This document shows positions 131-46,168 of a stretch of 64,000 nt of DNA, piece after piece (positions within the stretch are counted from its first letter, which is position 1; each line of letters opens with the position of its first letter). Source of the DNA: Acidobacteriota bacterium (GTDB lineage: Bacteria; Acidobacteriota; Blastocatellia; RBC074); NCBI GenBank assembly GCA_019639255.1, contig JAHBSF010000008.1, positions 21,148 to 85,147 of the forward strand. The letters are read 5' to 3'. The position numbers and the translations under genes are program-made. The notes below the pieces were generated by a model. It was not told where the DNA came from, did not search any database, and worked only from the letters and a program-made list of their open reading frames with translations.

Positions 131-222
131 CACCGACGGAACAAACGAAATAAAACGAAAATCACGGAAAAGTTGAGTATTTCCGTATTTTTCGTCTTAT
201 TTCGTTTGTTCCGTCATCTCGC
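131..222. repeat. Family-1 palindromic intergenic element (copy 1)
   Basis: Arms cggaacaaacgaaataaaacgaaaatcacggaaaag / ttccgtatttttcgtcttatttcgtttgttccgtcatctc mirror each other around the loop agttgagtat. Confidence 0.85.
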
Positions 223-6875: not shown

Positions 6876-6969
6876 AGATCACGGAACAAACGAAATAAAA
6901 CGGAAACTACGGAAAAGCTGAATATTTCCGTAGTTTCCGTCTTATTTCGTTTGTTCCGTCATCTCTCTC
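6876..6969. repeat. Family-1 palindromic intergenic element (copy 3), between the convergent protease and polA genes
   Basis: agatcacggaacaaacgaaataaaacggaaactacggaaaag-ctgaatat-ttccgtagtttccgtcttatttcgtttgttccgtcatctctc. Confidence 0.9.
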
Positions 6970-11195: not shown

Positions 11196-11340
11196 CAGCA
11201 ATACCCGGTTTAGAAAGAAAGAGAGATAACGGAACAAACGAAATGATACGAAAATTACCGAAAAGTCGAATATTTCCGTTTGTTCCGTCTTATTTCGTTT
11301 GTTCCGTTATCTCTCTTTCTTTCTAAACCGGGTATTGCTG
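11196..11340. repeat. Family-1 element (copy 4) with ~25-bp copy-specific extended palindromic flanks
   Basis: cagcaatacccggtttagaaagaaagagagataacgg ... ccgttatctctctttctttctaaaccgggtattgctg. The inverted repeat extends well beyond the family core. Confidence 0.9.
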
Positions 11341-11353
11341 ACTTCAGACAAGG

Positions 11354-14300
11354 TTGCCCATGCTAAATCTCACCCCGCTTCGCATACTCTCACTCGGCCT
11401 GTTTATCGTCGCCGCACTGCTCGCCTCCGGCGTCGTAGTCGCGCGGCAGGGGCAGACCCCGCAGGTCGTCACGGTTTCGGCAGCCGACTTCCAGGCGCGG
11501 ATTGCGCCCGATTCGATCGTAGCAACTTTCGGCGCGGGGCTTTCCACAACAACACTCGCCGCAGAATCGCTGCCGCTGCCCACTGAACTCGGCGGCACTA
11601 CCGTAACGGTCAGAGATTCGCAGGGGCGCGATTTTGCGGCGCCGCTGCTGTTTGTATCGCCCGCGCAGATCAACCATCTGATTCCGGGCGATGCGGCGCC
11701 GGGTGCGGCGCAAATAACGGTGCGTTCGGGGAATGGTTCGGTCGTTTCGGGTGCGATCCAGATCGTATTGGTTGCTCCGGCTATTTTCACTGCAAATCAG
11801 GATGGGCGCGGAGCGCCCGCGGCTATGGTGCTGCGCGTTGGGGCCGACGGCCGCCAGACCAACGAATCGCCCTCGATAATCGTCAACGGCAGGTTCATTC
11901 CGCGTCCGGTCGATCTGGGACCCGAGGACGAGAGGGTTTTTCTTGTTCTCTTTCTCACCGGGCTGCGCAACGCTCCGAATACGGACGGAAACAACGAAAA
12001 CGGATCGGCGGAAAATGTAAGGGTGCTGATCGGGGGCGTATTGCAGGCGCCGCTGTTTGCGGGAGCGCAGGGGAGTTTTGCCGGGCTGGATCAGGTGAAC
12101 GTAGAGATTCCGAGAACGCTGCTGGATCCTTCGCTGCCCGGCAGCCGGCAGATAAACGTTTCGTTAAAGGCGCCCGGGTTTACGGATTCCAACGAAGTAG
12201 AAATTGCGCTGGCTCCCGTTGCGGGTTCGGCCCTGGCGATAACCGGATTCGATGCGCCGCCGCAGGTGCTGGCGCATTCAGAAATTCAGCTCAACGGCGC
12301 CGGGATTTCCCCCGTGGTTTCCCGCAACAAGATAAGTTTCGGCGAAGGCGCGGGCGATGCGCGCCCCGGAGAAATCCGTGCGGCTTCCGCAACGCAGTTA
12401 TCGGCTTTGGTTCCCTTCGGCGCGGTTTCGGGACTTATTTCAGTCAATTCTGACGGCAGGAGCTGGACCAGCGAATCGCCGCTCGCGGTAAGAACATCCG
12501 TCAGCGCGCTTGTGCTCGACACCGACGGTCAGCCGTTTTCGCCGCTTTTCGGAGGGCGCGTATGTTTTCCGAACTGCTCGGCCGGCAGTTCGATCACCCA
12601 GATTCAGAGGGGCGGGTGGTTCGTTTTGCCGGATCCGCCTCCGGGCAATCGCCGCATATTCGTCATCGAGGCGCCGACCCAACCCGGGGCGCTTGCCTTC
12701 AACAGGACGACGATTTCATCGCCGATAGTCGCCGACCGGGACAATCCATTGCCGCAGCAGGTTTATCTGCAAGCCATCTACGGTCCCAGCGCAGCGATTG
12801 GAAGTTCAAGCGGTTTCAAACAGGCGCGCGAGGTGCGACAAACCCAGGTTCCGAAGGTCAGTCTCTCGATCGAAGGGTTTAATTTCACGCTGCCCGTAGA
12901 TGCGGATGCGACATTTCCCGACGGAACGAAGTCGGGAGTGCTGACGCTGACTCCGGTGAAAAACAGCCTGACTCCCGTACCGATGCCTCCGGCGATTTTC
13001 AGCTCCGCCGTAGTCCAGATTTCGCCCTTCGGCGTCGCGCTCCAGCCCGGAGGCGCTTTAACCTTCCCGAATCGGGACGGACTCGGACCCAATCCCGCTC
13101 CGACGCTTTTCAAATACGATATCAACAACGCAAGTTTCATAGACACCGGAATCAGGGCGGAACTGAGCGAGGACGGCAGATACTTCACCACACCCGATGG
13201 AGCGATCACCGAGACGAGCATTTATTTTGTAGCGGTAAAGCAGAAAACCACTACGATCGCGGGACGCGTACTTGAAAGCGACGACTCAACGCCGGTCAAG
13301 GGCGTCGTAGTCTCGGCGCGGGGTCGTTTCGCCACAACCGACGGCAATGGAGGGTACAGTCTGGCGCAGGTTCCGACCGGTGAAATTGATGAGTCCGAAG
13401 CGGCCCCGGCGCTGCACGGCGTTCATCAACGGGGGGCTGCCCTTTCGTCAAACGCACCCATCATTCTGCTGGCGAATTATTTGCGACCGAGCGGGCGAGC
13501 CGATACGACGATGCGCAACATTTCAAACCCCGTAACCGGGGGCATTACGGACGTGTCGCCGCTGCTGCTGCCGCCGCTTGATTCCAACCGCCCGCCGTCC
13601 ATAAACGTTGCAGGATACCTGACGATTTACGCAACCGAAACCCGGCAACTGCCCGTGCTCGTCACCGAACTTGACGACGGCCAGATGGTTGGCGATGTAA
13701 CGGTCGGCGGCGCGGACTTCGCTGCGCTCGAAGATGAAGGCGGCGGAGTATATTCGCTGCGGCTCTCACCTCAAACAAGCGATGTAGGTCAGCGTTTGCT
13801 TACCATAACCGCGACGGATTCAGAGGGCGGATCGACGAGCATCGATGTTACGGTCATCGTATTTCCGTTGCCTGCCGCCGCAGGGCAGACGAAAACGACG
13901 ACTCCCGATACTCCGGTTGCAATCGCGCTTCAGGGCATCGATGCGGATAACCTGCCGCTCACCTTTGCAATCGTTTCGCCGCCCGCCAACGGAACGCTTT
14001 CCGGCGCTCCTCCGGAAGTGATTTACACGCCCGGGGCGGGGTTTCTCGGAACCGACAGCTTCACCTTCAAGGCGAGCAACGGAATAGTCGAGGGGCCGCC
14101 GGCGGCGGTCACGATCAATGTCATCGATGCTGCGCCGGTGATTCAGGCGCTGTCGCCGGCATCGGTCGTCACAATCGACGGGGCTTTTGAATTGAAGGTG
14201 TTCGGAGAGGGATTTGCTCCGGGAGCCATGGTCAGATTCAACGGCGCTGCGCGGCAGACTACTTTTATTTCTGAAAACGAGGTGCGAGCGCAGATCACGG

Positions 14301-16496: not shown

Positions 16497-16600
16497 CAAA
16501 AGAGAGATAACGGAACAAACGAAATTAGACGGAACAAACGGAAATATTCAACTTTTCCGTAATTTTCGTTTCATTTCGTTTGTTCCGTTATCTCTCTTTT
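16497..16600. repeat. Family-1 palindromic intergenic element (copy 5)
   Basis: aaaagagagataacggaacaaacgaaattagacggaacaaacggaaatattcaacttttccgtaattttcgtttcatttcgtttgttccgttatctctcttttc. Confidence 0.9.
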
Positions 16601-16758
16601 CTCCCAAACCGAGAATTGCCGCTGGCTGATATTCATTGGCCCCTTCGGAGAGTAATCAAGGAACTTAATTTCCAGTGTACCAAAGGGTCTAAAGGGTCCC
16701 AACGAGGGTAATTTCAATGCCTATTCCAATTCAGATACGGGGAAGCGCACACCAATCG

Positions 16759-19700
16759 ATGCGGCGCCAGACCTGGAAGAAGTATTTCTATGCTGGAATT
16801 ATCCTCCCATTAATCTCAGCCATTGCGTCGACAACGCCGGGTATTTCGGCTCGCGCTGTTCAATCCTCACAGGTTGTAACGGTTTCGGCAGCCGACTTCC
16901 AGGCGCGGATTGCGCCTGATTCGATCGTAGCAACTTTCGGCGCGGGGCTTTCCACAACAACGCTCGCCGCAGAATCGCTGCCGCTTCCGACCGAACTCGG
17001 CGGCACTACGGTAACGGTCAGAGATTCACAGGGGCGCGATTTTGCGGCGCCGCTGCTGTTTGTATCGCCCGCGCAGATCAACCACATCATTCCCGCCGAT
17101 GCCGTTCCCGGCGCGGCGCAGATAACGGTGCGTTCGGGGAATGGTTCGGTCGTTTCGGGTGCGATCCAGATTGCATCGGTCGCTCCAGCCATATTCACTG
17201 CAAATCAGGACGGGCGCGGAGCGCCTGCTGCGACCGCATTGCGCCTGGCCGCCGATGGTGAACAGACATCCGAACCGGTTGAGACCTTTGCCGACGGCAG
17301 ATTCATCCCGCGCCCGATCAACCTCGGGCCGGATGACGAACGCGTATTTCTTATTCTCTTCCTGTCGGGATTGCGCCGCACCCCGAATACCGACGGCAAC
17401 AACGACAACGGATCGGCGGAAAATGTAAGTGTGCTGATCGGGGGCGTATTGCAGGCGCCGCTGTTTGCGGGAGCGCAGGGGAGTTTTGCCGGGCTGGATC
17501 AGGTAAACGTAGAGATTCCGCGCCAGTTGCTGGATGCAACGTTGCCGGGCAGCAAACAGATCAACATATCGGTCCAGGTTTCGGGCTTTTCCGGATCGAA
17601 CGAGGTGGAAATCGCGCTGGCTCCGCCCACAGCGCCCCCGCTCGAAGTCACCGGCTTCAATGCGCCCGCGCAACTGCTCGCCAACTCCGGCATACAGATC
17701 CTCGGCAGCGGACTCGATCCGGAAGCGGCAAACAACCGCGTAAGCTTCGGCGAGGGCACCGGGGATGTCCGCCCCGGCGAAGTGCGCACGGCGAGTTCAT
17801 CCGACCTCTCGGTGATCGTCCCGTTCGGCGCCGTAAGCGGCAGGATCGCGCTCAACTCCGACGGGCGCAGGTGGACAAGCGATCAGGAACTGCAGGTGAG
17901 AACCTCCTTCAGCGCCCAGATCAAGGATACCGAGGGGCAACCTCTGTCGTCCGTGCTCGGCGCGCGCGTATGCGCACCCGACTGCACGGGAAACAATCCT
18001 TCAACGAATATTCAGACCGGCGGGTGGTTTGTGCTGCCCGACCCGCTGCCCGGTGCGCGGCGCGTATTTTCCATCGAACCTCCCCAAACCGCGGGCGCGC
18101 TGCCGTTCAACCGCATTACGGTCGCATCGCAGGTCATCGCCGGCCGCGACAACCACCTGCCGCAGGAAATCTACATTCAGACCATTTACGGACCGAGCGG
18201 AACCATCGGAAGCAGCTTCGCCGGAAACAGCCCGCCCGGTAATACGGCGGCGGCCGGTGCATCCACCTCAACCGTAAAGCAGACGGCGCAGGGAAACGCG
18301 TTTAGTCTGGCGATCGAGGGATTCCGCTTTACGCTGCCCGCAGGCGCCACGGCGATGTTTCCAAACGGCGCGACAAACGGCCAGGTCACGTTGACGCCGG
18401 TAAAAAACAGCCTGACTCCGGTGCCGATGCCGCCGAATGTTTTCAGCTCCGCCGTAGTCCAGATTTCGCCCTTCGGCGTCAAACTTGCACCCGGTGGAAA
18501 GCTGTTCTTTCCCAACCGCGACGGATTCGGCACGCAGGTCATTCCGACGCTCTATAAATACGATCTGGAATCCGCCGCATTCATCGACACCGGAATAAGG
18601 GTGACGATAGGCGATCAGGGCGTACTCGAAACGCCCGACGGCGCAATCACAGAAACGAGCATATATTTCCTGGCCGTGCGCCGCGAATCTACGACGATCG
18701 TGGGCCGCGTATTTGACGGCGACGGGCGCACGCCGGTGCGTGGAGCTGTGGTTTCCACGCGCGGACAACAGGCCGTTACCGACGGCAACGGCGGATACAT
18801 ACTCTCTTCGGTGCCCGTAGGCGATAGCGCAGATATTGGACCATTCGGCGGAGCCAACGCCGGAGCCAACGCCGGAGCGCGCCCCGCAGCGCCCGCCCAG
18901 GATCAGGTGATCGTTACATCGAGTTATCTGCGGCCGAGCGGCAAGACCGATATAAGAAGCGTAACGGTCGACAATATCGACATCGGAGGCGTAACGCAGG
19001 CGCCCGCAATAGTGCTGCCGCCGGCTGCGAGCAACCGCCCGCCCGTAATATATGCGCCCGGACACCTGACGCTTTATTCCGACGAGATGCTGGAGGCAAC
19101 CGTCACGGTAGACGATCCCGACCCCAACCAGACCATAGCATCTGCAACCGTGACCGGAGCCTCATTCGCATCGCTTGCAGCAGCGGGATCGGGATCATAC
19201 ACGCTGAGACTCGCTCCCACGCCGGCCGATACAGGAACACATACGCTGACGATCACGGCCGCCGACAGCGCGGGCGCAAGCGCGTCGTTTCAGGCTACGA
19301 TCATCGTCTTCCCCCCGCCTGCGGCCAATGCGCTCGCCGTTTCTACAAACGAGGATACGCCTCTTGCGATAGTCCTGCCCGGCAGCGGCGGAAACGGCTC
19401 GCCGCTGGTCTTTACCATCGTTGAAGCACCGATGCACGGAGTGCTTGCGGGCGCGCCGCCCAATCTGGTTTACACACCGAATCAGGATTACATCGGCGCC
19501 GACGGCTTCCGCTTCCAGACAAGCGACGGAACGAGGACGAGCGCGCCTGCGACCGTGACGATTACGATAAATGACGTAAACGACCCGCCTCAACTTACCG
19601 TTACGTGTTCGGTGCAGGGCAACATTACGACCGGCACGCCGATTACCTGTCAGGTTTCGGCGTCCGATCCGGACGTGGGGCAGTTTCTGCTAATTTCAGC

Positions 19701-22700
19701 CGATAATCTGCCGGCGGGGGCCACGTTTGATCCGGATACGGGGCTGTTCGCCTGGACGCCGGGGCCGGACCAGGCAGGCAGCCACTCGGTCACCTTCAAG
19801 GTCATAGACAGCGGAACGCCGCCGCTCACGGATCTGAAGACCGTAGGGTTTTTCGTATTCAATGCGCAACCGGTCATCACGTCGCTGCAGCCCGCGATGG
19901 CGACGATTTTACAGGAACCGATGATCCTGACTGTTACTGGGCAGGGCTTCGTGCTGGGTTCCGAAGTGCGGTGGAACGGCTCGCCGCGTGATACGAGTTT
20001 CCTCGGCACGACGCAACTCCATGCGCTCATACAGCCCGACGATCTGACGACGATCGGCACAGTGGTCGTGACGGTATTCAACCCGGGGCCCGGCGGCGGA
20101 TTGTCGGCTGCGGTCAACTATTCGATAGTAAATCCCGTGCCCACGATCGCAGGGTTTCTCAGCGTTACTCCGCCTTTTAATTTCATGTTTTTTGAATCGG
20201 GGATGCTGCTGGTCGGGACGGGATTTGTGCCCGGTTCAGTGGCGCGATGGGACGGAGTAGACCGCCCGACGAGTTACGTCAGTCCGACGCAACTGGGAAT
20301 ATCGATACCGATGGTACCGGTAGCCGAGGCGCTCAATACGCATTCGATAACCGTATTTAATCCCGGCCCCGGGGGAGGCGAATCGAACGCGCTCACCGGG
20401 TTTTCGGTTTCGAACAATCCGGGGACCATCTTTTTCACTGATCCGGAATCGGTCGATGCCGGAAGCGGGGAGTTCCAGCTTACGATATTTGGAGGAGGGT
20501 TCGTCCCAGGTGCGACGGCGAACTGGAACGGCAGTCCGAGGCCGACCGGCCCGGTTTCGCTCGCATTCGGCGGAGCAGGCACACAGTTGACGGTAACGAT
20601 TTCAGCCGAGGACGTGGCTGAGGGTGGATTTGGGATGCTGACAGTTACCAATCCGCCGCCGTTTGACAATACCTCCGCCCCGTTCGCATTCCCGATCAAT
20701 CTGCCGCAGCCCGTACTGACGACCGCCGAGCCCCCATCTGTGCCGGAATTCCAGTATCTCTTCACCGAAGAGGAAATCAGCCTCGGAGGCGCAGGCTTCA
20801 CTCCTCAATCCGTGGTGCGATGGGACGGCGACGACCGGCCCACGACATACATAAGCTCGGCCCAACTCACATTTACAGCACCCATAATTCCCGTATCGGA
20901 AGCCCTGAGTTTTCACGATATCAGGGTATTCAATCCGCTGCCGGGAGGGGGGCTGTCGGATCCGCTGTTTTTCCTCCCGCTCAGCAACACGCCGCCGTCG
21001 ATCTCTATGGTAACGCCCGGTTCCGCCACTGCGGGAGGGCCGGGTTTCGAACTCACGGTTACCGGCTCGTACTTCGCACCCGGAGCAGTACTGAACTGGA
21101 ACGGCAGTCCGCGGCCGACCACGGTTTCAAGCTCTACCGAACTCACGGCTACTATTTCGGCTGCGGATATCATGACGGCGGGCATGGCGAGTTTGACCGT
21201 ATTGAATCCCGTACCCCTTGCTACAATCTCCACTATCTTTCCGTTTACGATTCATCCGCAGCCGACCATCTCCGCACTCGGCCCGGATTCCGTTACGCTG
21301 ACGATTCCGTCGCAGGAGTTGGAGATTTGGGTTTTCGGGGCGAACTTCCTCCCGCAGACGGTTATCCACTTTGACGGCTCTCCGGTTCCGACCACATACC
21401 TGGACGATATGACGATGTCGTTCGTCCGGCCGCCCATCACGGACAGCCAGGCCGGGTTCTATAACGTCACGGCGGTAAATCCTGCGCCGGTGACTCCTTC
21501 GTCGCCCGTAGTATTTACGGTCTTCAACCCGGGTACGCTGATCGATAACCTGGACCCGATGTTTGCCGATCTGGGCGGTCCTGCGTTTACTCTGGCGGTT
21601 TCCGGAAACGGGTTTGTGCAGGAGTCGGTAGTGCGATGGAACGGCAGCGACCGGCCGACGACGTACTTTTCAAAAAACTTTCTGGAGGCCGAGATCCCGG
21701 CAGAGGATCTTTCATCTCCCGGGTTTGTTGGGATAACGGTATTCAATCCGGCGCCGGGCGGCGGCGAGTCGATGCCCGTTGATTTCTTCATCGGGGCTCC
21801 ATTTACCTTCACGGGCAGCGAGCCTGCCGCAGCCGGTCTACCCGGGGGCGAAGTGCTGCTTGCAGGAGGCAGGGACGAAAACAGTCATACGCCGATTGCG
21901 CGGGTCGAGATATTCAGCCCCGCGACCGGTATACTGCAAGCCGCATCGCCGATGTTTGCACCGCGGGCCGGACATACGGCGACGGCGCTCGCCACCGGAG
22001 AAGTACTGGTCATCGGCGGTCTCGGCGCATCCGACGAGCGACAGACTGCGGCGCAGAGCGCAGAGATTTACGATCCCTCGACGGGTGCGTGGCGGCGCGC
22101 ATCGGCTCCGAACTTCGCGCACATATCGCATACGGCTACGCTGATGGCGGACGGCCGCGTGCTTGTAGCGGGCGGAATGGATGAAACCCTTGCCCTGAGC
22201 CGGCGCGCGGAAATCTACGATCCGGCCTCGGACGTATGGACCGAAGCTGTAGCTTTAACAACGCAGCGCGCGTCAGCCAAGGCATTGCTGCTTGATGACG
22301 GGCGCGTGCTGGTTGCGGGCGGCGCAGGTGAGGGCGGCGATCTTGCAGGCGTCGAAATTTATGACGCGCAGGCAGATGCCTGGACGCAGGCAAGCGATAT
22401 GAATTTGGCCCGCTCCGGGCATACGTTGACGCTTATACCGGGCGGCGGCGTGCTTGCCGTAGGAGGAAAACAGCAGGATGCCGCCGCAGTCGCGGAAATC
22501 TACGATCCGGCCGCAAACGCGTGGGAAGCGTCGGGAAGATTAACGGTTGCGCGCAGCGCTCACAGCGCAACGCCTCTTGCGAACGGGCGAGTACTGGTTG
22601 CGGGCGGGCGCGGCGTGGACGGGCGGCTGCTCGATGAATGCGAAGTTTACGATCCGCAGAAAGCGGCGTGGTCCGAAGCGCCGCGATTGAAGGAACCCAG

Positions 22701-22779
22701 AGAGCGCCATACTGCGGTGGTACTGAGCGACGGACGCGTTGCGGCCGTAGGCGGGCGCCGTGAGAAGAAAGAGAGATAA
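16759..22779 (+). CDS. Giant secreted IPT/TIG-repeat / Kelch-propeller surface protein, tandem paralog of 11354-16486
   Basis: Same architecture with about 14 IPT/TIG-like repeats and a C-terminal Kelch propeller. The N-terminal ~120 aa are nearly identical to the upstream paralog at DNA level. Start could be the upstream ATG 16717 or 16759; 16759 begins a hydrophobic signal-like segment. Confidence 0.8.
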   Translation: MRRQTWKKYFYAGIILPLISAIASTTPGISARAVQSSQVVTVSAADFQARIAPDSIVATFGAGLSTTTLAAESLPLPTELGGTTVTVRDSQGRDFAAPLLFVSPAQINHIIPADAVPGAAQITVRSGNGSVVSGAIQIASVAPAIFTANQDGRGAPAATALRLAADGEQTSEPVETFADGRFIPRPINLGPDDERVFLILFLSGLRRTPNTDGNNDNGSAENVSVLIGGVLQAPLFAGAQGSFAGLDQVNVEIPRQLLDATLPGSKQINISVQVSGFSGSNEVEIALAPPTAPPLEVTGFNAPAQLLANSGIQILGSGLDPEAANNRVSFGEGTGDVRPGEVRTASSSDLSVIVPFGAVSGRIALNSDGRRWTSDQELQVRTSFSAQIKDTEGQPLSSVLGARVCAPDCTGNNPSTNIQTGGWFVLPDPLPGARRVFSIEPPQTAGALPFNRITVASQVIAGRDNHLPQEIYIQTIYGPSGTIGSSFAGNSPPGNTAAAGASTSTVKQTAQGNAFSLAIEGFRFTLPAGATAMFPNGATNGQVTLTPVKNSLTPVPMPPNVFSSAVVQISPFGVKLAPGGKLFFPNRDGFGTQVIPTLYKYDLESAAFIDTGIRVTIGDQGVLETPDGAITETSIYFLAVRRESTTIVGRVFDGDGRTPVRGAVVSTRGQQAVTDGNGGYILSSVPVGDSADIGPFGGANAGANAGARPAAPAQDQVIVTSSYLRPSGKTDIRSVTVDNIDIGGVTQAPAIVLPPAASNRPPVIYAPGHLTLYSDEMLEATVTVDDPDPNQTIASATVTGASFASLAAAGSGSYTLRLAPTPADTGTHTLTITAADSAGASASFQATIIVFPPPAANALAVSTNEDTPLAIVLPGSGGNGSPLVFTIVEAPMHGVLAGAPPNLVYTPNQDYIGADGFRFQTSDGTRTSAPATVTITINDVNDPPQLTVTCSVQGNITTGTPITCQVSASDPDVGQFLLISADNLPAGATFDPDTGLFAWTPGPDQAGSHSVTFKVIDSGTPPLTDLKTVGFFVFNAQPVITSLQPAMATILQEPMILTVTGQGFVLGSEVRWNGSPRDTSFLGTTQLHALIQPDDLTTIGTVVVTVFNPGPGGGLSAAVNYSIVNPVPTIAGFLSVTPPFNFMFFESGMLLVGTGFVPGSVARWDGVDRPTSYVSPTQLGISIPMVPVAEALNTHSITVFNPGPGGGESNALTGFSVSNNPGTIFFTDPESVDAGSGEFQLTIFGGGFVPGATANWNGSPRPTGPVSLAFGGAGTQLTVTISAEDVAEGGFGMLTVTNPPPFDNTSAPFAFPINLPQPVLTTAEPPSVPEFQYLFTEEEISLGGAGFTPQSVVRWDGDDRPTTYISSAQLTFTAPIIPVSEALSFHDIRVFNPLPGGGLSDPLFFLPLSNTPPSISMVTPGSATAGGPGFELTVTGSYFAPGAVLNWNGSPRPTTVSSSTELTATISAADIMTAGMASLTVLNPVPLATISTIFPFTIHPQPTISALGPDSVTLTIPSQELEIWVFGANFLPQTVIHFDGSPVPTTYLDDMTMSFVRPPITDSQAGFYNVTAVNPAPVTPSSPVVFTVFNPGTLIDNLDPMFADLGGPAFTLAVSGNGFVQESVVRWNGSDRPTTYFSKNFLEAEIPAEDLSSPGFVGITVFNPAPGGGESMPVDFFIGAPFTFTGSEPAAAGLPGGEVLLAGGRDENSHTPIARVEIFSPATGILQAASPMFAPRAGHTATALATGEVLVIGGLGASDERQTAAQSAEIYDPSTGAWRRASAPNFAHISHTATLMADGRVLVAGGMDETLALSRRAEIYDPASDVWTEAVALTTQRASAKALLLDDGRVLVAGGAGEGGDLAGVEIYDAQADAWTQASDMNLARSGHTLTLIPGGGVLAVGGKQQDAAAVAEIYDPAANAWEASGRLTVARSAHSATPLANGRVLVAGGRGVDGRLLDECEVYDPQKAAWSEAPRLKEPRERHTAVVLSDGRVAAVGGRREKKER

Positions 22780-22883
22780 CGGAACAAACGAAATAAGACG
22801 AAAACTACGGAAAAGTTGAATATCGTTGAATATTTCCGTGCTTTTCGTCTCATTTCGTTTGTTCGGTGGCTTCTTTTCTTCTC
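22765..22883. repeat. Family-1 element (copy 6) with duplicated loop (gttgaatatcgttgaatat) and degenerate right arm
   Basis: gaagaaagagagataacggaacaaacgaaataagacgaaaactacggaaaag...ttccgtgcttttcgtctcatttcgtttgttcggtggcttcttttcttctc. Confidence 0.85.
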
Positions 22884-22960
22884 TCAATACACTTCGTTTA
22901 TGCAGTACTGAGGGGCTCTCAGGGATATGATGTGGTGGCATCAGAATGGAGGATGCGGCC

Positions 22961-24100
22961 ATGATTAAGGAAATTTCGCTGGAGAATTTCAGAAACCACT
23001 CAAAGACGACGATCAGGCCCGGTCGTGTGACGGCGCTTGTCGGGACGAATGGGAGTGGCAAGACTTCTCTGCTCAAAGGCCTTAATCATCTTACGAAATC
23101 CCTCCAGAGAATCGACCAGGGATTCTCCTGGGACTCTTATTTCCAAGGAGACTGCGACCCCGCAGTGATCGTGCGGCGTGGACAGACTCACGTCTCCTTC
23201 GGTGCTGAAGGGGGAGATAAAACTGCCGATTGGTCGATCCAGATCGGCCTCAACTTGTCACCAAACCCATCTGTCCCCTCAAAAAGCCTGCCTCTGGATT
23301 GCAAGGCAAGGTATGGAGGTCAGCGTTATGACATGCACCAAGCCAGTCTGAAAGATAAAAACCCGCTTGAGCTAGCAAGAAAAGCGCTGGGAGAATCTTT
23401 TTACTTCAAAGGAATTGGGCAAAACATTGCCCGGCCCACCTACTCACCACATACTACGCCCCTACTTGAGGCAGATGGCAGTTATCTGGCTTCAGTGATT
23501 GCCTACCTGATGACTAATGAACGAGGTAAGGTTGAAGAAATCGAAAAGTCGTTGCGCGCTATTGTTCCGATTGTCAGGCAAATTCGCGTCAAGCCAACAA
23601 AGCTGACTTGGCAGGAAAAGAAAGTCGTCTCAATCAACGGCACTCAGGTGCCCTATGAAGAGCAGAGGGAAGTCATCGGCCATCAGTTGCTGATCGATAC
23701 TAACAGCGCCGATGAGGTGCCAGCCGACGCCTTGAGTGAGGGAACACTTCTTGTTCTGGCGGTACTGACTGTGCTTTGGGGGCCGGCTTGTCCGAAATTG
23801 ATTTTATTGGACGATGTCGAGCAGGGTCTCCATCCTATTGCCCAGCGCGAAACAATGCAGATACTTAGACAATTCGCTGAGCAGCAGCAGAGGCAAATCA
23901 TCGTCACGAGCCATTCACCATATATCATTGACGAACTTGACCCACAGGATGTGTGGGTAATGGCGACCGATGCGAAAGGAGTAAGTATCACCAAATGTCT
24001 GAAAGATCACCCTGACTCCGAGCGCCTCAAACAGGTGCTTACAACCGGCGAACTGATTGGCGCCGTCGGTGAAGATTGGGTAATACATCAAGCCCAATGA
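22961..24100 (+). CDS. ABC-type (AAA_21/OLD-like) ATPase, candidate defence-system ATPase subunit
   Basis: N-terminus MIKEISLENFRNHSKTTI. Walker A GTNGSGKTSLL, ABC signature-like LSEGTLLVL, Walker B LILLDDVEQGLHP, H-loop IIVTSHSPYI. About 50% GC versus >60% in the flanks. An alternative ATG lies at 22946. Confidence 0.75.
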   Translation: MIKEISLENFRNHSKTTIRPGRVTALVGTNGSGKTSLLKGLNHLTKSLQRIDQGFSWDSYFQGDCDPAVIVRRGQTHVSFGAEGGDKTADWSIQIGLNLSPNPSVPSKSLPLDCKARYGGQRYDMHQASLKDKNPLELARKALGESFYFKGIGQNIARPTYSPHTTPLLEADGSYLASVIAYLMTNERGKVEEIEKSLRAIVPIVRQIRVKPTKLTWQEKKVVSINGTQVPYEEQREVIGHQLLIDTNSADEVPADALSEGTLLVLAVLTVLWGPACPKLILLDDVEQGLHPIAQRETMQILRQFAEQQQRQIIVTSHSPYIIDELDPQDVWVMATDAKGVSITKCLKDHPDSERLKQVLTTGELIGAVGEDWVIHQAQ

Positions 24101-24853
24101 TTGGAGATCAGGATGATCGAGATTGCAGTGGTGGCGGAGGCCGAGGCTGACCTACGCATCGCCTCGAAACTTGCTGATCGGATGCTATTTCTTGAAGACC
24201 CATGCTCCTGGCTCCACGGCCAGCACCCTGAGGATTTCCGGTCGTGGTGCGGCCTTAAACCGGGTACAACCTTTACCAGGTGGCCTGAAATCCGCTCACT
24301 GAGCAAATCATTTCCGCGATTGATGTACCTGCGCCGAAATCAGCCCGAACCACGACTACCGGACTATGCACCAGCTCGAAAAGCAATTCTCCTTTCCACG
24401 TTATTGCGCCCAAAATCACCACCAAGCGCTTTGCTGCTCATACGGGATCTCGATAACCAGGAGGAGCGGCGAGCAGGGCTTAAGCAGGCAATAAGTGAAA
24501 TACCTACGCTCGTCGTCTTAATAGCAACACCAAATCCACAACGTGAAGCATGGGTCTTAAACGGATTCCTTTGCGGCAACGAATCTGAATCCGGCGAACT
24601 CCGGCAAATCACTCGCGACTTAGGATTTGATCCTTGCATTCAAGCAGAAAGACTACGACACTCTTCCAGGACCGACTCTCCTGAACGCGACCCCAAACGA
24701 ATCGTTGAACGATTGACTGAAGGGAAATTTGAGCGCGAAGAACTCTGTTGGACGCAGACATCTATTACGATGTTGCGTGACAGAGGAGAGAAAACTCACC
24801 TCGCGGATTATCTCGACGAAGTAAGGCGGCTACTGCCCCTTCTCGGGCAATAA
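24101..24853 (+). CDS. Small Toprim-like protein (DUF4276-like by recollection) translationally coupled to the ATPase, candidate nuclease/effector subunit
   Basis: Starts at TTG 24101 (or ATG 24113), directly abutting the ATPase stop codon at 24098-24100. Acidic beta1 motif IEIAVVAEAEAD and a later DxD-like LIRDLDNQEE, consistent with a Toprim fold. Assignment is by motif only. Confidence 0.5.
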   Translation: MEIRMIEIAVVAEAEADLRIASKLADRMLFLEDPCSWLHGQHPEDFRSWCGLKPGTTFTRWPEIRSLSKSFPRLMYLRRNQPEPRLPDYAPARKAILLSTLLRPKSPPSALLLIRDLDNQEERRAGLKQAISEIPTLVVLIATPNPQREAWVLNGFLCGNESESGELRQITRDLGFDPCIQAERLRHSSRTDSPERDPKRIVERLTEGKFEREELCWTQTSITMLRDRGEKTHLADYLDEVRRLLPLLGQ

Positions 24854-24896: not shown

Positions 24897-25131
24897 GAAT
24901 CTCTCAGAGCGTGTTTTGAAAGCCCCGAAGGGGCGAAAGATCTGTAGCCTGGTGCGCAAGCGCCAGGTCAAATCGAGAAACGCGTCCGAGCCCTGAAAGG
25001 GCGAAAGACCTATACAACGGGGATCTTCCGCCCTTTCAGGGCTGAAATTGATGTTGGCCCGATACCCAGGGCTTACGCCGCTGGGCTACAGGTCTCTCGC
25101 CCCTTCAGGGCTTTCAAAACACGCTCTCAGA
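24897..25131. repeat. Family-2-related large nested palindrome (variant copy C)
   Basis: ctctcagagcgtgttttgaaagccccgaaggggcgaaagatctgtagcc...ggctacaggtctctcgccccttcagggctttcaaaacacgctctcagag. Shares the core ggcgaaagatctgtagcc with copies at 35.4 kb and 53.6 kb. Confidence 0.8.
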
Positions 25132-25207
25132 GTTGGGTTTGAGGTTGACGGCGCCCAGCGTAGGAATTCCGCTCTTCAGCCCCGATTTCGGCGCTTTGAG
25201 AGGGATG

Positions 25208-26902: not shown

Positions 26903-27001
26903 AAGAGAGATAACGGAACAGACGAAATAAGACGGAAACCACGGAAATAGATGAAAACTACGGAACCCGTCAAACTTTCCGTTTATTCAGTTATCTCTCT
27001 T
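26903..27001. repeat. Family-1 element (copy 7, divergent interior)
   Basis: gaaagagagataacggaacagacgaaataagacggaaaccacggaaatag...ttccgtttattcagttatctctct. Confidence 0.8.
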
Positions 27002-28744: not shown

Positions 28745-28820
28745 AATATAACGAAAATTACCGAAAAGTTGAATATTTCCGTATGTTCCGTCTTATTTCG
28801 TTTGTTCCGTTATCTCTCTT
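28745..28820. repeat. Family-1 element (copy 8, left arm truncated)
   Basis: aacgaaaattaccgaaaagttgaatatttccgtatgttccgtcttatttcgtttgttccgttatctctct. Confidence 0.8.
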
Positions 28821-35420: not shown

Positions 35421-35740
35421 GTGCTGAAGTAGAAGTGCTGAGTGCTGAGTCCTGAGTGCTGAGTGCAAATAGGAACTGAAGAACTTCTATACTCCGTCAA
35501 ACAAGTTCTTTGAGTTTATCAGCCGCGGAGCGGCGAAAGATCTGTAGCCCAGGGCGGCGAGCCCTGGGTAAGTGTAGAGAAGCCGTACCAGCCCCGGAGG
35601 GGCGGAAGATCTTTCGCCCTTTCAGCGCTCGGGCGTTCTGTTTTTTCTGACCTGGCGCTCACGCACCAGGCTACAGATCTTTCGCCGCTCCGCGGCTGAA
35701 AAACTCAAAAACTTTGTTTACAGAGCACTGAGTACGACAG
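35421..35740. repeat. Family-2 large palindrome (copy A) with GTGCTGAGT repeats, located between hisG and hisD
   Basis: gtgctgagtgctgagtcctgagtgctgagtgcaaataggaactgaagaacttctatactccgtc...ggcgaaagatctgtagcccagggc...gccctgg...gctacagatctttcgccgctccgcggctgaaaaactcaaa...cagagcactgagtacgac. Confidence 0.85.
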
Positions 35741-35761: not shown

Positions 35762-37087
35762 ATGATTGAGATCATCACACTGGAGACGGGAAATCCGGCG
35801 GAGAGTCCGAAGTTGAAGCGGATTCTGGGCCGCACGGGCGGACTCGACGCCGAAGTGCTTGTGCGCACCGACGCCGTAGTGCGCGATGTGCGCGCGCGAG
35901 GCGATGCGGCGATTCTTGAATACACTGCAAGATTCGATGGCGTCACCCTTACGCCCGCAACCCTGCGCGTCGAACGCGAACAAATCGAGGCGCTCGCCGC
36001 ACAAGTCGATTCAGAACTGATCGCCGCGATGCGCGAGGCGATCGCCAACATCCGCCACTACCACGCACATCAACGCGCAGGCGACTGGGAAATCGAGCGC
36101 CGCAACGGCGTGCGACTCGGTCAGCGCGTGCGCCCGCTCGGAATCGTCGGATTGTACGTGCCCGGCGGAAGCGCAGCCTATCCGTCAACCGTGATGATGA
36201 ATGCGATACCGGCGCAGGTCGCAGGCGTAGAGCGCATCGTAGTCGTCACGCCCCCGGCGCAATTTGCGCGCAATCCGGTGATTGCAGCCGTACTGAACGA
36301 ACTCGGATTGTTCGAGGTTTACACGATCGGAGGCGCGCAGGCCGTAGCCGCGCTCGCCTACGGCACCGCCACCCTTCCGCGCGTGGACAAAATCGTAGGC
36401 CCCGGCAATCAGTACGTCGCTGCTGCCAAAAAGATCGTCTACGGCGTCGTGGATATAGATTCGATCGCCGGGCCGAGCGAAATCGTGGTCATTGCGGACG
36501 ATTCGGCGCGTCCGGATTACGTGGCCGCCGATATGCTCTCGCAGGCGGAGCATTCCGAAGATGCAGCGGCGATTCTCGTTACAACGAGCGGCGATCTGGC
36601 TGAAGCGGTGCGCGCCGAAATAATCAAACAGACCGGGCATCTGTCACGCCGCGCAATCATTGAAAAGTCGCTGCGCGATTACGGCGCGATCATAGTCGTC
36701 GGATCGACGGAAGCGGCGACGGCGCTCGTAGACCGGCTCGCGCCCGAACACGTAGAGGTAATGACGGAAAACGCGGAAATCGATGCGGCGCGATTGCGGC
36801 ACGCGGGAGCGATATTCATCGGCCCCTATTCGCCGGAACCCGTCGGAGATTATTTCGCCGGGACAAACCACGTGCTGCCTACGGGCGGAACGGCGCGGTT
36901 TTCCTCGGCGTTGGGCGTTTACGATTTTCTGAAACGAACCAGCATCATTCGCTACACCGAAGCCGAACTTGCACAAACGGCCGGAGCGATAGACCGGCTT
37001 GCGCGCGCCGAGGGTTTCGACGCGCACGCGCGCGCGGCTACGATCAGAACGGAAGGAAACAGAGAGATAACGGAACAAACGAAATAA
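35762..37087 (+). CDS. hisD: Histidinol dehydrogenase
   Basis: MIEIITLETGNPAE..., motifs GGAQAVAALAYGT, SQAEHSEDA and Zn/His ligands. The last ~10 codons of the ORF run into the family-1 element; the real stop may lie slightly earlier. Confidence 0.9.
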   Translation: MIEIITLETGNPAESPKLKRILGRTGGLDAEVLVRTDAVVRDVRARGDAAILEYTARFDGVTLTPATLRVEREQIEALAAQVDSELIAAMREAIANIRHYHAHQRAGDWEIERRNGVRLGQRVRPLGIVGLYVPGGSAAYPSTVMMNAIPAQVAGVERIVVVTPPAQFARNPVIAAVLNELGLFEVYTIGGAQAVAALAYGTATLPRVDKIVGPGNQYVAAAKKIVYGVVDIDSIAGPSEIVVIADDSARPDYVAADMLSQAEHSEDAAAILVTTSGDLAEAVRAEIIKQTGHLSRRAIIEKSLRDYGAIIVVGSTEAATALVDRLAPEHVEVMTENAEIDAARLRHAGAIFIGPYSPEPVGDYFAGTNHVLPTGGTARFSSALGVYDFLKRTSIIRYTEAELAQTAGAIDRLARAEGFDAHARAATIRTEGNREITEQTK

Positions 37088-37167
37088 AACGAAAAGCCCA
37101 AAACAGACCGAAAAGACGGATTATTCCGTCTGTTTCGTGTTATTTCGTTTGTTCCGTTATCTCTCTT
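37061..37167. repeat. Family-1 element (copy 10) between hisD and hisC
   Basis: agagagataacggaacaaacgaaataaaacgaaaagcccaaaacagaccgaaaag-acggattatt-ccgtctgtttcgtgttatttcgtttgttccgttatctctct. Confidence 0.85.
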
Positions 37168-41240: not shown

Positions 41241-41310
41241 GAGAAACAACGGAATGGTTGAATATTTCCGTGGTTTCCGTCTTATTTCGTTTGTTCCGTC
41301 ATCTCTCTCT
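41241..41310. repeat. Family-1 element (copy 12, left arm truncated)
   Basis: agagaaacaacggaatggttgaatatttccgtggtttccgtcttatttcgtttgttccgtcatctctctc. Confidence 0.8.
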
Positions 41311-46051: not shown

Positions 46052-46168
46052 ACGGAAGAAGTGAGAAAAACGGAACATACGAAATAAAACGAAACAAACG
46101 GAAAATGTCATCCCCTTCCGTTTGTTTCGTCTATTTCGTATGTTCCGTTTTTCTCACTTCTTCCGTTG
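46052..46168. repeat. Family-1 variant element (copy 14) with distinct termini (gaagtgagaaaaacgg / ccgtttttctcacttc), near-perfect 117-bp palindrome
   Basis: acggaagaagtgagaaaaacggaacatacgaaataaaacgaaacaaacggaaaatgtcatccccttccgtttgtttcgtctatttcgtatgttccgtttttctcacttcttccgt. Confidence 0.85.

What the first reader, a model, noticed from the sequence alone, without database searches (positions are those of the whole stretch)
22884..24853. Lower-GC two-gene island: ABC-type ATPase translationally coupled to a small Toprim-like protein. Candidate split OLD/PARIS-like anti-phage system
The stretch 22.9-24.9 kb is ~50% GC against a background above 60% and is wedged between two large housekeeping blocks. 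It is bounded upstream by a family-1 palindromic element and downstream by a large family-2-type palindrome. Gene 1 is an AAA_21/OLD-type ABC ATPase with Walker A GTNGSGKTSLL, signature-like LSEGT, Walker B LLDDVEQGLHP and H-loop TSHSP. Gene 2 (about 245 aa) starts at the codon immediately after the ATPase stop codon (24098-24100), either TTG 24101 or ATG 24113. It carries an acidic beta1 motif IEIAVVAEAEAD and a DxD-like RDLDNQEE, a pattern expected of a Toprim nuclease. An ATPase plus a separate Toprim effector is the logic of OLD-family, Gabija and PARIS (AriA/AriB) defence modules. I cannot match this pair to a named system from memory (possibly AAA_21 + DUF4276), so it may be an uncharacterised variant. 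No cognate trigger or antitoxin is visible.
Basis: partly seen in the sequence, partly recalled or inferred. Interest (0 to 1): 0.8.

Follow-up and report, generated by a model that had tools for sequence, protein, structure and literature searches.

The report
Unmodelled ABC-ATPase plus Toprim-like effector pair
A horizontally acquired two-gene cassette in an Acidobacteria genome pairs an OLD/PARIS-type ABC ATPase with a small, unclassified Toprim-like (probable nuclease) protein; it is a new branch of a well-known class of toxin/anti-phage modules, not a new kind of system.

Summary
Two tightly coupled genes (gene 1 22961-24100, gene 2 24113-24853, + strand) form the lowest-GC, most compositionally deviant stretch of the 64-kb window. 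Gene 1 is an AAA_21/OLD-type ABC ATPase with all motifs. Gene 2 matches no Pfam, PADLOC or NCBIfam model on its own. It belongs to a family of about 1,300 protein clusters (50% identity), and in 83 of 83 loci examined it lies directly downstream of a gene 1-type ATPase. The two proteins co-evolve (r = 0.92).

A confident AlphaFold model has a beta-alpha-beta-alpha-beta-alpha-beta core with the family's most conserved residues at Toprim catalytic positions: E9 after beta1, D112xD114 after beta3, E145-A-W after beta4. Diverse family members weakly but specifically hit HEC-01B (DUF4276), PDC-M25B, PDC-M31B, RloB and Toprim models. Gene 1 hits the matching A components.

The pair is therefore a divergent, unmodelled lineage of the ABC-ATPase plus Toprim-like effector modules (PARIS, AbiL, HEC-01, MAD3-MAD4). 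It is not a member of PARIS, OLD or Gabija. An anti-phage role is inferred from relatives only: genomic context is heterogeneous, and the family is absent from the phage, plasmid and viral collections searched. Side finding: in Nostocales the same pair is conserved cargo of the xisA/nifD excision element.

The parts
22779..22867 (.). Family-1 palindromic repeat (42-nt arms, 5-nt loop), directly after the stop codon of the upstream 2,020-aa gene. It is a genome-wide REP-like intergenic element, probably not part of the cassette; it may act as a terminator or insulator.
   Evidence: 21 arm matches at about 13 sites in the window, 0 expected by chance.
22948..22953 (+). Shine-Dalgarno sequence GGAGGA for gene 1, 7 nt before ATG 22961.
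   Evidence: Read from the sequence. The start at 22961 is supported.
22961..24100 (+). Gene 1: ABC-type (AAA_21/AAA_15, OLD/PtuA-like) ATPase, 379 aa. The longest ORF starts at 22946. Walker A is at 23042-23065, signature LSEGT at 23732-23746, Walker B DD.E at 23810-23821 and H-loop His at 23912-23914.
   Evidence: Pfam AAA_21 E 1.1e-25. PADLOC HEC-01A 1.6e-34, PDC-M07A 1.4e-29, mad3 1.4e-25, AriA 2.2e-25. Closest solved sequences are Thermus OLD 6p74 (E 1.8e-7) and retron/Septu PtuA. Motifs are invariant in 52 homologues. AF2 model pLDDT 90.8.
24103..24106 (+). Shine-Dalgarno sequence GGAG for gene 2, inside the 12-nt spacer between the gene 1 stop (24098-24100) and ATG 24113. This supports translational coupling.
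   Evidence: Read from the sequence.
24113..24853 (+). Gene 2: 246-aa Toprim-like putative metal-dependent nuclease/effector. The N-terminal beta-alpha-beta-alpha-beta-alpha-beta core spans residues 1-150 and a C-terminal helical domain spans 157-244. Key codons: E9 24137-24139, D112 24446-24448, D114 24452-24454, E145 24545-24547, W147 24551-24553.
24901..25132 (.). Family-2 compound palindrome between the gene 2 stop and the convergent amidohydrolase stop (25208). It is built from Acido-Lenti-1-like hairpins at 24921-24967 (-) and 25065-25112 (+). It is probably a bidirectional terminator or repeat element and is not specific to the cassette.
   Evidence: 36.8 and 32.7 bits against a gathering score of 37; the copy at 35651-35697 passes the gathering score.

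Best explanation
The region is a self-contained, horizontally acquired two-gene module. Gene 1 encodes an OLD/PARIS-type ABC ATPase and gene 2 encodes a small Toprim-like, probably Mg2+/Mn2+-dependent nuclease. The two are co-transcribed and translationally coupled.

Proposed mechanism, by analogy with PARIS and with the AAA-neutralised TOPRIM_OLD toxin-antitoxin pairs:
1. The ATPase oligomer binds the Toprim effector and keeps it inactive, acting as sensor and antitoxin.
2. A trigger, such as a phage protein or loss of ATPase supply, leads through ATP binding or hydrolysis to release or activation of the effector.
3. The effector cleaves nucleic acid using the E9 / D112xD114 / E145 metal site, causing growth arrest or abortive infection. 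tRNA or other RNA seems somewhat more likely than DNA, because the separate small Toprim effectors studied so far hit translation.

Shown here:
- The ATPase identity and its intact motifs.
- Obligate pairing and co-evolution of the two genes.
- The foreign composition of the cassette.
- Conservation of acidic residues at Toprim catalytic positions.
- Weak but specific family-level homology of both components to HEC-01, PDC-M25 and PDC-M31.

Inferred only: physical complex formation, nuclease activity, substrate, trigger and anti-phage role.
For: ATPase identity: AAA_21 E 1.1e-25. Defence-type ABC ATPase models are the best PADLOC hits. Nearest solved sequences are OLD and PtuA, ahead of transporter ABCs. 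Motifs are invariant.

Pairing: 83 of 83 loci have a gene 1-type ATPase immediately upstream on the same strand, usually with an 8-nt overlap. Pairwise identity matrices of the two proteins correlate at r = 0.92.

Toprim-like effector:
- The AF2 model (pLDDT 93) has a b1(2-8)-a-b2(43-46)-a-a-b3(106-110)-a-b4(134-138)-a core.
- Across 141 homologues at 30-46% identity, the only invariant residues are E9, E145 and W147; D112 and D114 are at least 90% conserved. This matches the published Toprim definition of a Glu after b1 and DxD after b3 (PMC12065111).
- At E <= 0.01 the only Pfam families hit by any of the 141 members are RloB (4 members, best 4.1e-5) and Toprim (1 member).
- The wide-family consensus hits RloB at 2.7e-5.
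- 16 of the 18 PADLOC models hit are HEC-01B, PDC-M25B or PDC-M31B (best 3.7e-7). Gene 1 hits the matching A components.
- HEC-01B is DUF4276.
- The DxD-to-EAW segment aligns with DUF4276 in both search directions.

Function of relatives: PARIS AriA sequesters AriB, which cleaves tRNA (PMC11464382). AAA + RloB/TOPRIM_OLD pairs have been validated as toxin-antitoxin pairs with translation-targeting toxins (PMC10440598). One HEC-01 representative protected E. coli B against at least one phage (PMC12881386).

Horizontal acquisition: composition; 140 of 185,579 species across at least 5 phyla; absent from 80 relatives at this locus.
Against: - Gene 2 itself has no significant hit in any profile library.
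- hhalign against DUF4276 is non-significant (probability 0.2-1.9%).
- Foldseek against PDB and BFVD finds nothing at E < 0.1.
- Strand order and metal-site superposition could not be checked.
- Genomic context gives no guilt by association: 140 different Pfam families occur among 145 neighbour ORFs, with no R-M, CRISPR or other classical defence neighbours.
- The family is absent from 50,697 phage records, 72,556 plasmids and 2.9 million viral contigs, unlike PARIS.
- The first published test of HEC-01 found no defence (bioRxiv 10.1101/2024.01.29.577857).
- No trigger is identifiable.
Confidence: 0.55

Rival explanations
1. The pair is a toxin-antitoxin/addiction module whose main role is to stabilise the DNA segment or mobile element that carries it. 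The Toprim toxin is neutralised by the ATPase, and there is no dedicated anti-phage role.
For: AAA + TOPRIM_OLD/RloB-like pairs behave as toxin-antitoxin pairs in E. coli (PMC10440598). In about 20 Nostocales genomes the homologous pair is conserved cargo next to xisA in the nifD-type excision element, a setting where an addiction function is plausible. PIN and DUF433 neighbours recur. There is no defence-island context.
Against: Toxin-antitoxin behaviour and abortive-infection defence are not mutually exclusive; PARIS and AbiL are both. The family is absent from the plasmid and phage collections, where addiction modules are common. In the window the cassette sits between chromosomal genes, with no integrase, tRNA or flanking direct repeats.
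Confidence: 0.2
2. Gene 2 has a Toprim-like or Rossmann-like fold but is not a nuclease. It could be a nucleotide- or metal-binding regulator, or an adaptor that recruits another effector, with the ATPase doing the main work.
Against: The invariant and near-invariant residues are exactly the acidic Toprim positions E9, DxD and E145. All weak profile hits go to Toprim-type effector families. No third conserved gene that could be the real effector accompanies the pair.
Confidence: 0.12
3. The pair is a housekeeping DNA-repair or chromosome-maintenance pair analogous to RecF (an SMC-like ABC ATPase) and RecR (a Toprim protein).
For: Gene 1 weakly hits the N-terminal regions of RecF and SMC_N. RecR carries a Toprim domain (general knowledge).
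Against: The RecF hit covers only the N-terminal 40 residues and scores 40 bits against a cut-off of 172. The pair is present in only 140 of 185,579 species genomes, is compositionally foreign, is absent from 80 relatives at this locus and has a variable context.
Confidence: 0.03

Closest known systems
HEC-01 (PADLOC candidate: HEC-01A ABC ATPase + HEC-01B = DUF4276 Toprim-like protein)
   Same: It has the same two-gene order, with an overlapping or coupled ATPase followed by a small Toprim-like partner. Gene 1's best PADLOC hit is HEC-01A (1.6e-34). HEC-01B models are the ones most often hit by gene 2 family members (up to 19 of 141 on one model, best 3.7e-7). The b1-E, DxD and E-A-W motifs are co-linear.
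   Different: Genuine HEC-01 pairs score 1e-167 to 1e-181 for A and 1e-80 to 1e-100 for B. The window's gene 2 scores nothing, and hhalign against DUF4276 is non-significant. Gene 2 is longer (246 aa against 189-211 aa), with about 100 residues between b1 and DxD against about 58, plus a distinct C-terminal helical domain. HEC-01 examples are embedded in R-M or BREX operons; this pair is free-standing.
PDC-M25 and PDC-M31 (untested PADLOC candidate systems, A = ATPase, B = small partner)
   Same: Both components give concordant weak hits. Gene 1 hits PDC-M25A at 1.1e-19 and PDC-M31A at 2.9e-21. Family members hit PDC-M25B (10, 9 and 3 members, best 4.1e-7) and PDC-M31B (2 and 2 members, best 7.8e-5). 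The wide-family consensus hits PDC-M25B at 6.5e-4.
   Different: All hits are far below family-member level, and the window protein itself does not hit. These candidates have no published function that I could find.
PARIS (AriA ABC ATPase + AriB DUF4435 Toprim nuclease)
   Same: It has the same logic of a split ABC ATPase plus a separate Toprim-type effector. Gene 1 hits AriA models at 2.2e-25. PARIS is the best mechanistic template: sequestration followed by release of a tRNA-cleaving Toprim protein (PMC11464382).
   Different: Gene 2 and its family never hit DUF4435 or AriB models. The gene 1 model has a long beta-hairpin (205-247) and a beta-rich insert, where AriA has helical and coiled-coil inserts IS1 and IS2 (against PMC11464382). 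The pair is not found on phages or satellites.
AbiL / RloA-RloB and NetFlax AAA(D29)-TOPRIM_OLD(D44/D60) toxin-antitoxin pairs
   Same: These also pair an AAA_21-type ATPase with a small RloB-like Toprim protein. The wide-family consensus of gene 2 hits Pfam RloB at 2.7e-5, and 4 of 141 members hit it. Gene 1 hits AbiLi at 7.6e-19.
   Different: The RloB match is below Pfam's gathering score (24.9 against 31.5 bits) and covers only the DxD-to-b4 region. No AbiLii model is hit.
MADS MAD3-MAD4 (ATPase + DUF4276-type protein within the methylation-associated defence system)
   Same: Gene 1 aligns end to end with the mad3 model (residues 6-370 against 1-368 of 374, E 1.4e-25). The A1 consensus of gene 2 hits mad4 at 6.9e-4.
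   Different: The NCBIfam MADS3 score is 76.9 bits against a cut-off of 420. No methyltransferase or other MADS genes are adjacent.
OLD-family nucleases (class 1 P2 Old, class 2 Gabija GajA)
   Different: In OLD and GajA the ATPase and Toprim domains are fused in one polypeptide. Here they are separate genes, with no full-length fusions seen. There is no Toprim_OLD Pfam hit, and no GajB/UvrD helicase neighbour.

Membership tests
ABC-type ATPase, AAA_21/AAA_15 (OLD/PtuA/AriA-like) group | Pfam AAA_21 match above the gathering score | tested here: met
   PF13304 scores 91.8 bits against a cut-off of 27, covering residues 28-329 and profile positions 1-304 of 304. AAA_15 scores 70.7 bits against 32.1.
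ABC-type ATPase, AAA_21/AAA_15 (OLD/PtuA/AriA-like) group | Walker A, ABC signature, Walker B with catalytic Glu, and H-loop His present and conserved | tested here: met
   G28/N30/G33/K34, G261 (in LSEGT) and D285 are invariant; S259, D284, E287 and H318 are at least 90% conserved across 52 homologues.
Toprim superfamily | Conserved Glu immediately after beta1 and a DxD motif immediately after beta3, as defined in PMC12065111 | tested here: met
   The AF2 model has b1 at 2-8 followed by E9 (invariant), and b3 at 106-110 followed by D112-L-D114 (at least 90% conserved).
Toprim superfamily | Three-layer alpha/beta fold with sheet order b2-b1-b3-b4, superposable on known Toprim domains | tested here: inconclusive
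Toprim superfamily | Significant sequence or profile match to a Toprim-clan model | tested here: inconclusive
   The window protein has no hit. At family level, RloB is hit at 2.7e-5 by the consensus, below the gathering score. RloB is hit by 4 and Toprim PF01751 by 1 of 141 members, and these are the only Pfam families hit at E <= 0.01.
HEC-01 (AAA_21 ATPase + DUF4276) | B component matches DUF4276 / HEC-01B models | tested here: not met
   Gene 2 has no DUF4276 or HEC-01B hit at E <= 1. hhalign of the family against DUF4276 gives probability 0.2-1.9%. Only some diverse relatives reach 3.7e-7. Genuine members score 1e-80 to 1e-100.
HEC-01 (AAA_21 ATPase + DUF4276) | A component matches HEC-01A at member level | tested here: inconclusive
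   The best hit is 1.6e-34 in two stretches, against 9e-167 to 1e-181 for genuine members. Genuine members give E-values of a similar order against other ATPase families.
PARIS (AriA/AriB) | Effector is a DUF4435 (PF14491) Toprim protein, AriB | tested here: not met
   Gene 2, its consensus and 190 family members give no DUF4435 or AriB hit.
PARIS (AriA/AriB) | AriA-type ATPase with helical/coiled-coil inserts IS1 and IS2 that build the hexameric scaffold | tested here: inconclusive
   AriA models are hit at 2.2e-25 but are not the best hits. The AF2 model shows a beta-rich insert (77-126) and a long beta-hairpin (205-247) in place of a coiled coil. Oligomeric state is not testable here.
PARIS (AriA/AriB) | Activated by anti-restriction proteins such as Ocr; AriB cleaves tRNA-Lys | not testable with these tools
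   This needs experiments.
OLD family class 1/2 (including Gabija GajA) | ATPase and Toprim_OLD domains fused in one polypeptide; for Gabija, an adjacent GajB UvrD-like helicase | tested here: not met
   There are two separate ORFs with a stop codon and a 12-nt spacer. No Toprim_OLD hit. No helicase neighbour. No full-length fusions in the family.
AbiL / RloA-RloB | Partner protein matches RloB (PF13707) or AbiLii above threshold | tested here: not met
   The window protein has no hit. The consensus scores 24.9 bits, below the 31.5 gathering score. No AbiLii model is hit.
MADS (methylation-associated defence system) | MAD3 equivalog score, and co-location with a methyltransferase and other MAD genes | tested here: not met
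   NF047739 scores 76.9 bits against a cut-off of 420. The neighbours are an adhesin-like gene and an amidohydrolase.
Anti-phage defence system (generic) | Enrichment next to known defence genes or carriage on mobile elements | tested here: not met
   There are 140 different Pfam families among 145 neighbour ORFs. Only Uma2 (26), PIN (4), XisI (3) and DUF433 (3) recur among families with a plausible defence, toxin-antitoxin or mobile-element link. The family is absent from the phage, plasmid and viral contig collections. The exception is its role as cargo of the xisA/nifD element in Nostocales.
Anti-phage defence system (generic) | Experimental protection against phage | not testable with these tools
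   Only relatives have been tested. HEC-01 was negative in one study and positive in another. PARIS and AbiL are positive in the literature.

The most novel reading that the evidence does not exclude
The pair may define a distinct, previously unmodelled family of ABC-ATPase/Toprim-like modules: about 1,300 clusters at 50% identity, missed by Pfam, PADLOC and NCBIfam. Its effector carries a new C-terminal helical domain.

Its primary biology may not be classical phage defence. It could instead guard or stabilise chromosomal elements. This is suggested by its conserved place next to xisA inside the developmentally excised nifD element of about 20 Nostocales species. There it might act as an addiction or checkpoint nuclease linked to element excision.
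Probability: 0.15. Interest if true: 0.65.

Novelty: new variant of a known kind. Interest (0 to 1): 0.4.

Why it matters
ABC-ATPase plus Toprim nuclease modules (OLD, Gabija, PARIS, AbiL, HEC-01, MADS3-4) are a major theme of bacterial immunity. This family shows that a sizeable branch of them is invisible to current annotation and defence-finder profiles: about 1,300 clusters in soil Acidobacteriota, filamentous cyanobacteria and other phyla.

Adding models for both components would improve defence and toxin-antitoxin annotation in environmental genomes. The cyanobacterial members sit in genetically tractable Nostoc/Anabaena strains and inside the nifD excision element. That offers a practical route to test what such modules sense and cleave.

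The finding does not change the conceptual picture. It extends a known architecture.

Tried and rejected
- Direct profile searches with gene 2 against Pfam, PADLOC and NCBIfam gave nothing at E <= 1.
- The family profile against PDB sequences gave only a spurious collectin hit. The DUF4276 profile against PDB gave nothing meaningful, so PH0156 could not be tied to DUF4276 by sequence.
- Foldseek against PDB and BFVD gave no hit below E 0.1. The AFDB50 library was unavailable.
- hhalign of the gene 2 family against DUF4276 was not significant, either with the tool or with deeper alignments and relaxed settings. I therefore do not claim DUF4276 membership.
- tblastn of both proteins against plasmids and of gene 2 against phages, plus the gene 2 profile against IMG/VR, gave no relatives of gene 2. 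I rejected the idea that the cassette is phage- or plasmid-borne like PARIS.
- Empty-site reconstruction failed. The 80 amidohydrolase-bearing relatives lack the pair, but downstream synteny is not conserved at 68-79% identity, so a clean indel cannot be demonstrated.
- I looked for mobility hallmarks. There is no tRNA in the window, no flanking direct repeats and no integrase or transposase adjacent.
- The palindromes as island borders were rejected, because both are dispersed repeat families.
- The sigma-70 promoter scan found no convincing promoter upstream of gene 1. This is uninformative for Acidobacteria.
- Natural full-length fusions were sought as evidence of a functional link. Only deletion or frameshift derivatives turned up: P0021, P0116 and P0256.
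Full report
**1. What is in the sequence**

The window holds two same-strand ORFs at 22946-24100 and 24101-24853. Reading the DNA together with database entries and homologue alignments corrects both starts.
- Gene 1 most likely begins at ATG 22961, 7 nt after GGAGGA (22948-22953). The identical public protein P0380 is 379 aa, and every homologue alignment starts at residue 6 of the long ORF.
- Gene 2 begins at ATG 24113, 6 nt after GGAG (24103-24106). The identical entry P0001, from an Acidobacteria bacterium MAG, is 246 aa, and the N-termini of homologues align to MIEIAVV.
- The two genes are therefore separated by a 12-nt spacer that contains the ribosome-binding site. In homologues they usually overlap by 8 nt. 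Translational coupling is plausible, but 'the codon immediately after the stop' is not the real start.

**2. Composition**

The region's GC is 0.513 against a window mean of 0.589 +/- 0.017. It is the lowest 1,970-nt stretch of the 64 kb and the most tetranucleotide-deviant (0.464 against a median of 0.219). GC3 is 0.545 and 0.494 against 0.675-0.743 in the three neighbouring genes measured. This is a strong signature of foreign origin.

**3. The palindromes**

The first belongs to a dispersed intergenic repeat with 21 arm matches at about 13 sites in this window, against none expected. The arms of the second recur elsewhere and match the Rfam Acido-Lenti-1 motif. The scores here are 36.8 and 32.7 bits against a gathering score of 37, and a copy at 35651-35697 passes the threshold. 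They are ordinary genome-wide repeats at gene ends, not borders of the cassette. No tRNA, integrase or flanking direct repeat marks an insertion.

**4. Gene 1**

Gene 1 is a clear AAA_21/AAA_15 ABC-type ATPase (PF13304, E 1.1e-25, full-length).
- Its best PADLOC matches are ATPase components of defence or candidate systems: HEC-01A 1.6e-34, PDC-M07A 1.4e-29, mad3 1.4e-25 (end to end), AriA 2.2e-25, PDC-M31A 2.9e-21 and PDC-M25A 1.1e-19.
- The nearest solved proteins by sequence are the Thermus OLD nuclease and the retron/Septu PtuA ATPases, ahead of transporter ABCs.
- Genuine HEC-01A proteins score 1e-167 to 1e-181 on their own models and give E-values of a similar order against other ATPase families. 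Gene 1 therefore belongs to this superfamily but to none of the modelled families.
- Walker A, the LSEGT signature, Walker B and the H-loop are invariant or nearly so in 52 homologues.
- A confident AlphaFold model (pLDDT 90.8) shows a compact ABC head with a beta-rich insert (77-126) and a long beta-hairpin (205-247), where Rad50/SMC/AriA-type proteins carry coiled coils.

**5. Gene 2**

On its own, gene 2 hits nothing in Pfam, PADLOC or NCBIfam, even at E <= 1. It is nevertheless a real, conserved protein.
- A word-indexed search found 116 relatives. An exhaustive profile search found 1,304 representatives of 50%-identity clusters at E <= 1e-3, of which 1,014 are at E <= 1e-10.
- Among one genome per species, 140 of 185,579 carry it. 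They include Acidobacteriota/Blastocatellia, Rhodothermales, Desulfobacterales, Thiotrichales, Methylococcaceae, Chthoniobacterales and, above all, filamentous cyanobacteria.
- In 83 of 83 loci a gene 1-type ATPase (32-49% identity, full length where the contig allows) lies immediately upstream on the same strand.
- The pairwise identity matrices of the two proteins correlate at r = 0.92.

The pair is an obligate, co-evolving unit.

**6. Is gene 2 Toprim-like?**

The AlphaFold model is confident (pLDDT 93, pTM 0.90). It has a core of b1 (2-8), helix, b2 (43-46), two helices, b3 (106-110), helix, b4 (134-138), helix, followed by a helical domain at 157-244.

Across 141 homologues at 30-46% identity to the query, the only invariant residues are E9, E145 and W147. 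D13, R111, D112, D114 and R119 are at least 90% conserved. E9 follows b1 directly, D112-x-D114 follows b3, and E145 follows b4. This is the arrangement that defines Toprim domains, including RloB and DUF4276 (PMC12065111).

The fold searches are only moderately helpful:
- Lumazine synthase and Piwi MID domains score just as well.
- Foldseek finds nothing in PDB or BFVD, and AFDB was unavailable.

The sequence links are weak but strikingly specific:
- At E <= 0.01 the only Pfam families hit by any of 141 members are RloB (4 members, best 4.1e-5) and Toprim (1 member). About 1.4 chance hits would be expected over all 24,736 models.
- A consensus of the wider family hits RloB at 2.7e-5, which is below the gathering score.
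- In PADLOC, 16 of the 18 models hit are HEC-01B, PDC-M25B or PDC-M31B (best 3.7e-7). These are the partners of the ATPase models that gene 1 hits.
- I confirmed on real examples that HEC-01B is DUF4276.
- hhalign between the family and a DUF4276 alignment is not significant (probability 0.2-1.9%). Even so, its best local match and reciprocal HMM alignments put DxD-to-E-A-W in register with DUF4276's D70xD72-to-E114-A-W116.

My reading is that gene 2 is a divergent Toprim-superfamily protein related to the DUF4276, RloB and PDC-M25B partners. It is not a member of any of those families as currently modelled. It has a longer b1-to-b3 region and its own C-terminal helical domain, with conserved R192, K195, R208, C212-W213 and G225.

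**7. Context and mobility**

Immediate neighbours of the pair in 79 loci fall into 140 different Pfam families. The most frequent recurrent ones are Uma2 (26, probably one Microcoleus lineage), UPF0014 (5), PIN (4), XisI (3) and DUF433 (3).

There is no defence-island signal, and the family is absent from 50,697 phage records, 72,556 plasmids and 2.9 million viral contigs.

At this locus, 80 metagenomic relatives carrying the amidohydrolase orthologue (68-79% identity) all lack the pair. Of these, 16 also keep the adjacent CDF-transporter gene. Downstream synteny is too diverged to show a clean empty site.

The cassette is thus an accessory, horizontally moving two-gene unit, but how it moves is unknown.

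**8. Mechanism**

The best-supported model is borrowed from characterised relatives.
- In PARIS, the AriA ATPase scaffold holds the AriB Toprim nuclease inactive until a phage trigger releases it to cut tRNA (PMC11464382).
- AAA + RloB/TOPRIM_OLD pairs behave as toxin-antitoxin pairs, with a translation-targeting Toprim toxin neutralised by the ATPase (PMC10440598).

I therefore propose that gene 1 senses and restrains, and that gene 2 is a metal-dependent nuclease effector using E9, D112, D114 and E145, causing growth arrest or abortive infection.

My rough confidence in each step:

| Step | Confidence |
|---|---|
| Functional coupling of the two proteins | about 0.85 |
| Nuclease activity of gene 2 | about 0.65 |
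| Anti-phage role | about 0.5 |

The rivals are a pure addiction module, a non-catalytic Toprim-like partner, and a RecF/RecR-like repair pair. The last is disfavoured by rarity and foreign composition.

**9. Comparison with known systems and novelty**

The pair works like PARIS, AbiL or HEC-01, but it fails the membership tests for PARIS (no DUF4435), OLD and Gabija (not fused, no helicase), HEC-01 (no DUF4276-level match), AbiL/RloAB (below threshold) and MADS (far below the equivalog cut-off, no methylation genes).

It is best called a new variant of a known kind: an unmodelled lineage of ABC-ATPase plus Toprim-like effector modules. A specialist would not be surprised by the architecture. 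The value lies in the annotation gap it exposes, and in the cyanobacterial context described next.

**10. Side finding**

In 20 of the homologous loci, most from named heterocystous Nostocales, a XisA-type recombinase lies 1-5 kb upstream of the pair on the same strand. It is 77-95% identical across 19 of them. In at least 17 loci a nifK-like gene lies just beyond it on the other strand, sometimes with a DUF433 gene in between.

That is the layout of the xisA end of the nifD-interrupting element that is excised during heterocyst development. The pair is therefore conserved cargo of that element. This fits either defence cargo or an element-stabilising toxin-antitoxin role, and it offers a tractable experimental system.

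Noticed in passing
L002 1042-6771; also L013, L015, L026, L032, L043, L051, L057, L059, L063, L064, L067, L071, L073-L076, L078, L079, L083: In about 20 genomes, most of them named heterocystous Nostocales, the homologous ATPase plus Toprim-like pair lies 1-5 kb downstream of a conserved XisA-type recombinase. In at least 17 of them a nifK-like gene lies just beyond xisA. The pair is thus conserved cargo at the xisA end of the nifD-type developmental excision element. A DUF433 gene sits between xisA and the ATPase in 6 loci.
   Followed up: partly
window 136-214, 2182-2260, 6881-6959, 11229-11307, 16510-16588, 22779-22867, 26913-26938, 28785-28810, 37070-37157, 41274-41299, 46070-46095, 57434-57512, 61318-61343: An AT-rich palindromic repeat of about 90 nt (core ACGGAACAAACGAAATAAGACGAAAA) occurs at about 13 intergenic sites in the 64-kb window, with 21 arm matches against 0 expected. 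It looks like a REP- or MITE-like family typical of this genome. Its function is unknown.
   Followed up: partly
window 24901-25132, 35610-35697, 53856-53875: The arms of the 'family-2' palindrome match the Rfam Acido-Lenti-1 sRNA motif (RF01687). The copy at 35651-35697 passes the gathering score, and 24921-24967 (-) and 25065-25112 (+) fall just below it. Here the motif occurs as inverted copies inside a compound palindrome between convergent genes. That looks more like a dispersed repeat or terminator element than a stand-alone sRNA gene.
   Followed up: partly
window 11474-11866 and 16882-17289: The N-terminal region of the 2,020-aa adhesin-like gene (16717-22779) has a paralogous copy about 5.4 kb upstream. 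Both match the same segments of relatives' loci, which suggests two tandem giant surface-protein genes.
   Followed up: no
L084 (Meiothermus taiwanensis plasmid pMtWR-220, 52927-58442) and L085 (E. coli plasmid pX14-3-NDM, 142002-147466): These are textbook 'embedded' HEC-01 pairs. In Meiothermus, the AAA ATPase plus DUF4276 pair sits between hsdS and hsdR of a type I R-M operon, next to a DUF4433 plus macro-domain pair that I take from memory to be DarT/DarG-like. In E. coli the pair sits between pglX and pglZ of BREX-1 on an NDM plasmid.
   Followed up: no
L014, L016, L017, L023, L025, L030, L034, L056, L062 and other Microcoleus loci, about 90-340 nt downstream of the pair: A Uma2-family putative endonuclease gene (PF05685) is a neighbour in 26 of the 145 neighbour ORFs scanned. 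It probably corresponds to the convergent gene of roughly 210-290 aa seen downstream in many Microcoleus loci, though the Pfam summary does not say which ORFs hit. An unannotated ORF of about 630 aa is conserved upstream. This could be lineage synteny or a functional association.
   Followed up: no
P0021 (416 aa), P0116 (318 aa), P0256 (336 aa): A few database proteins join fragments of the ATPase (N-terminal 130-160 aa, or C-terminal about 60 aa) to the gene 2-like protein. They look like deletion or frameshift derivatives, not functional full-length fusions.
   Followed up: partly
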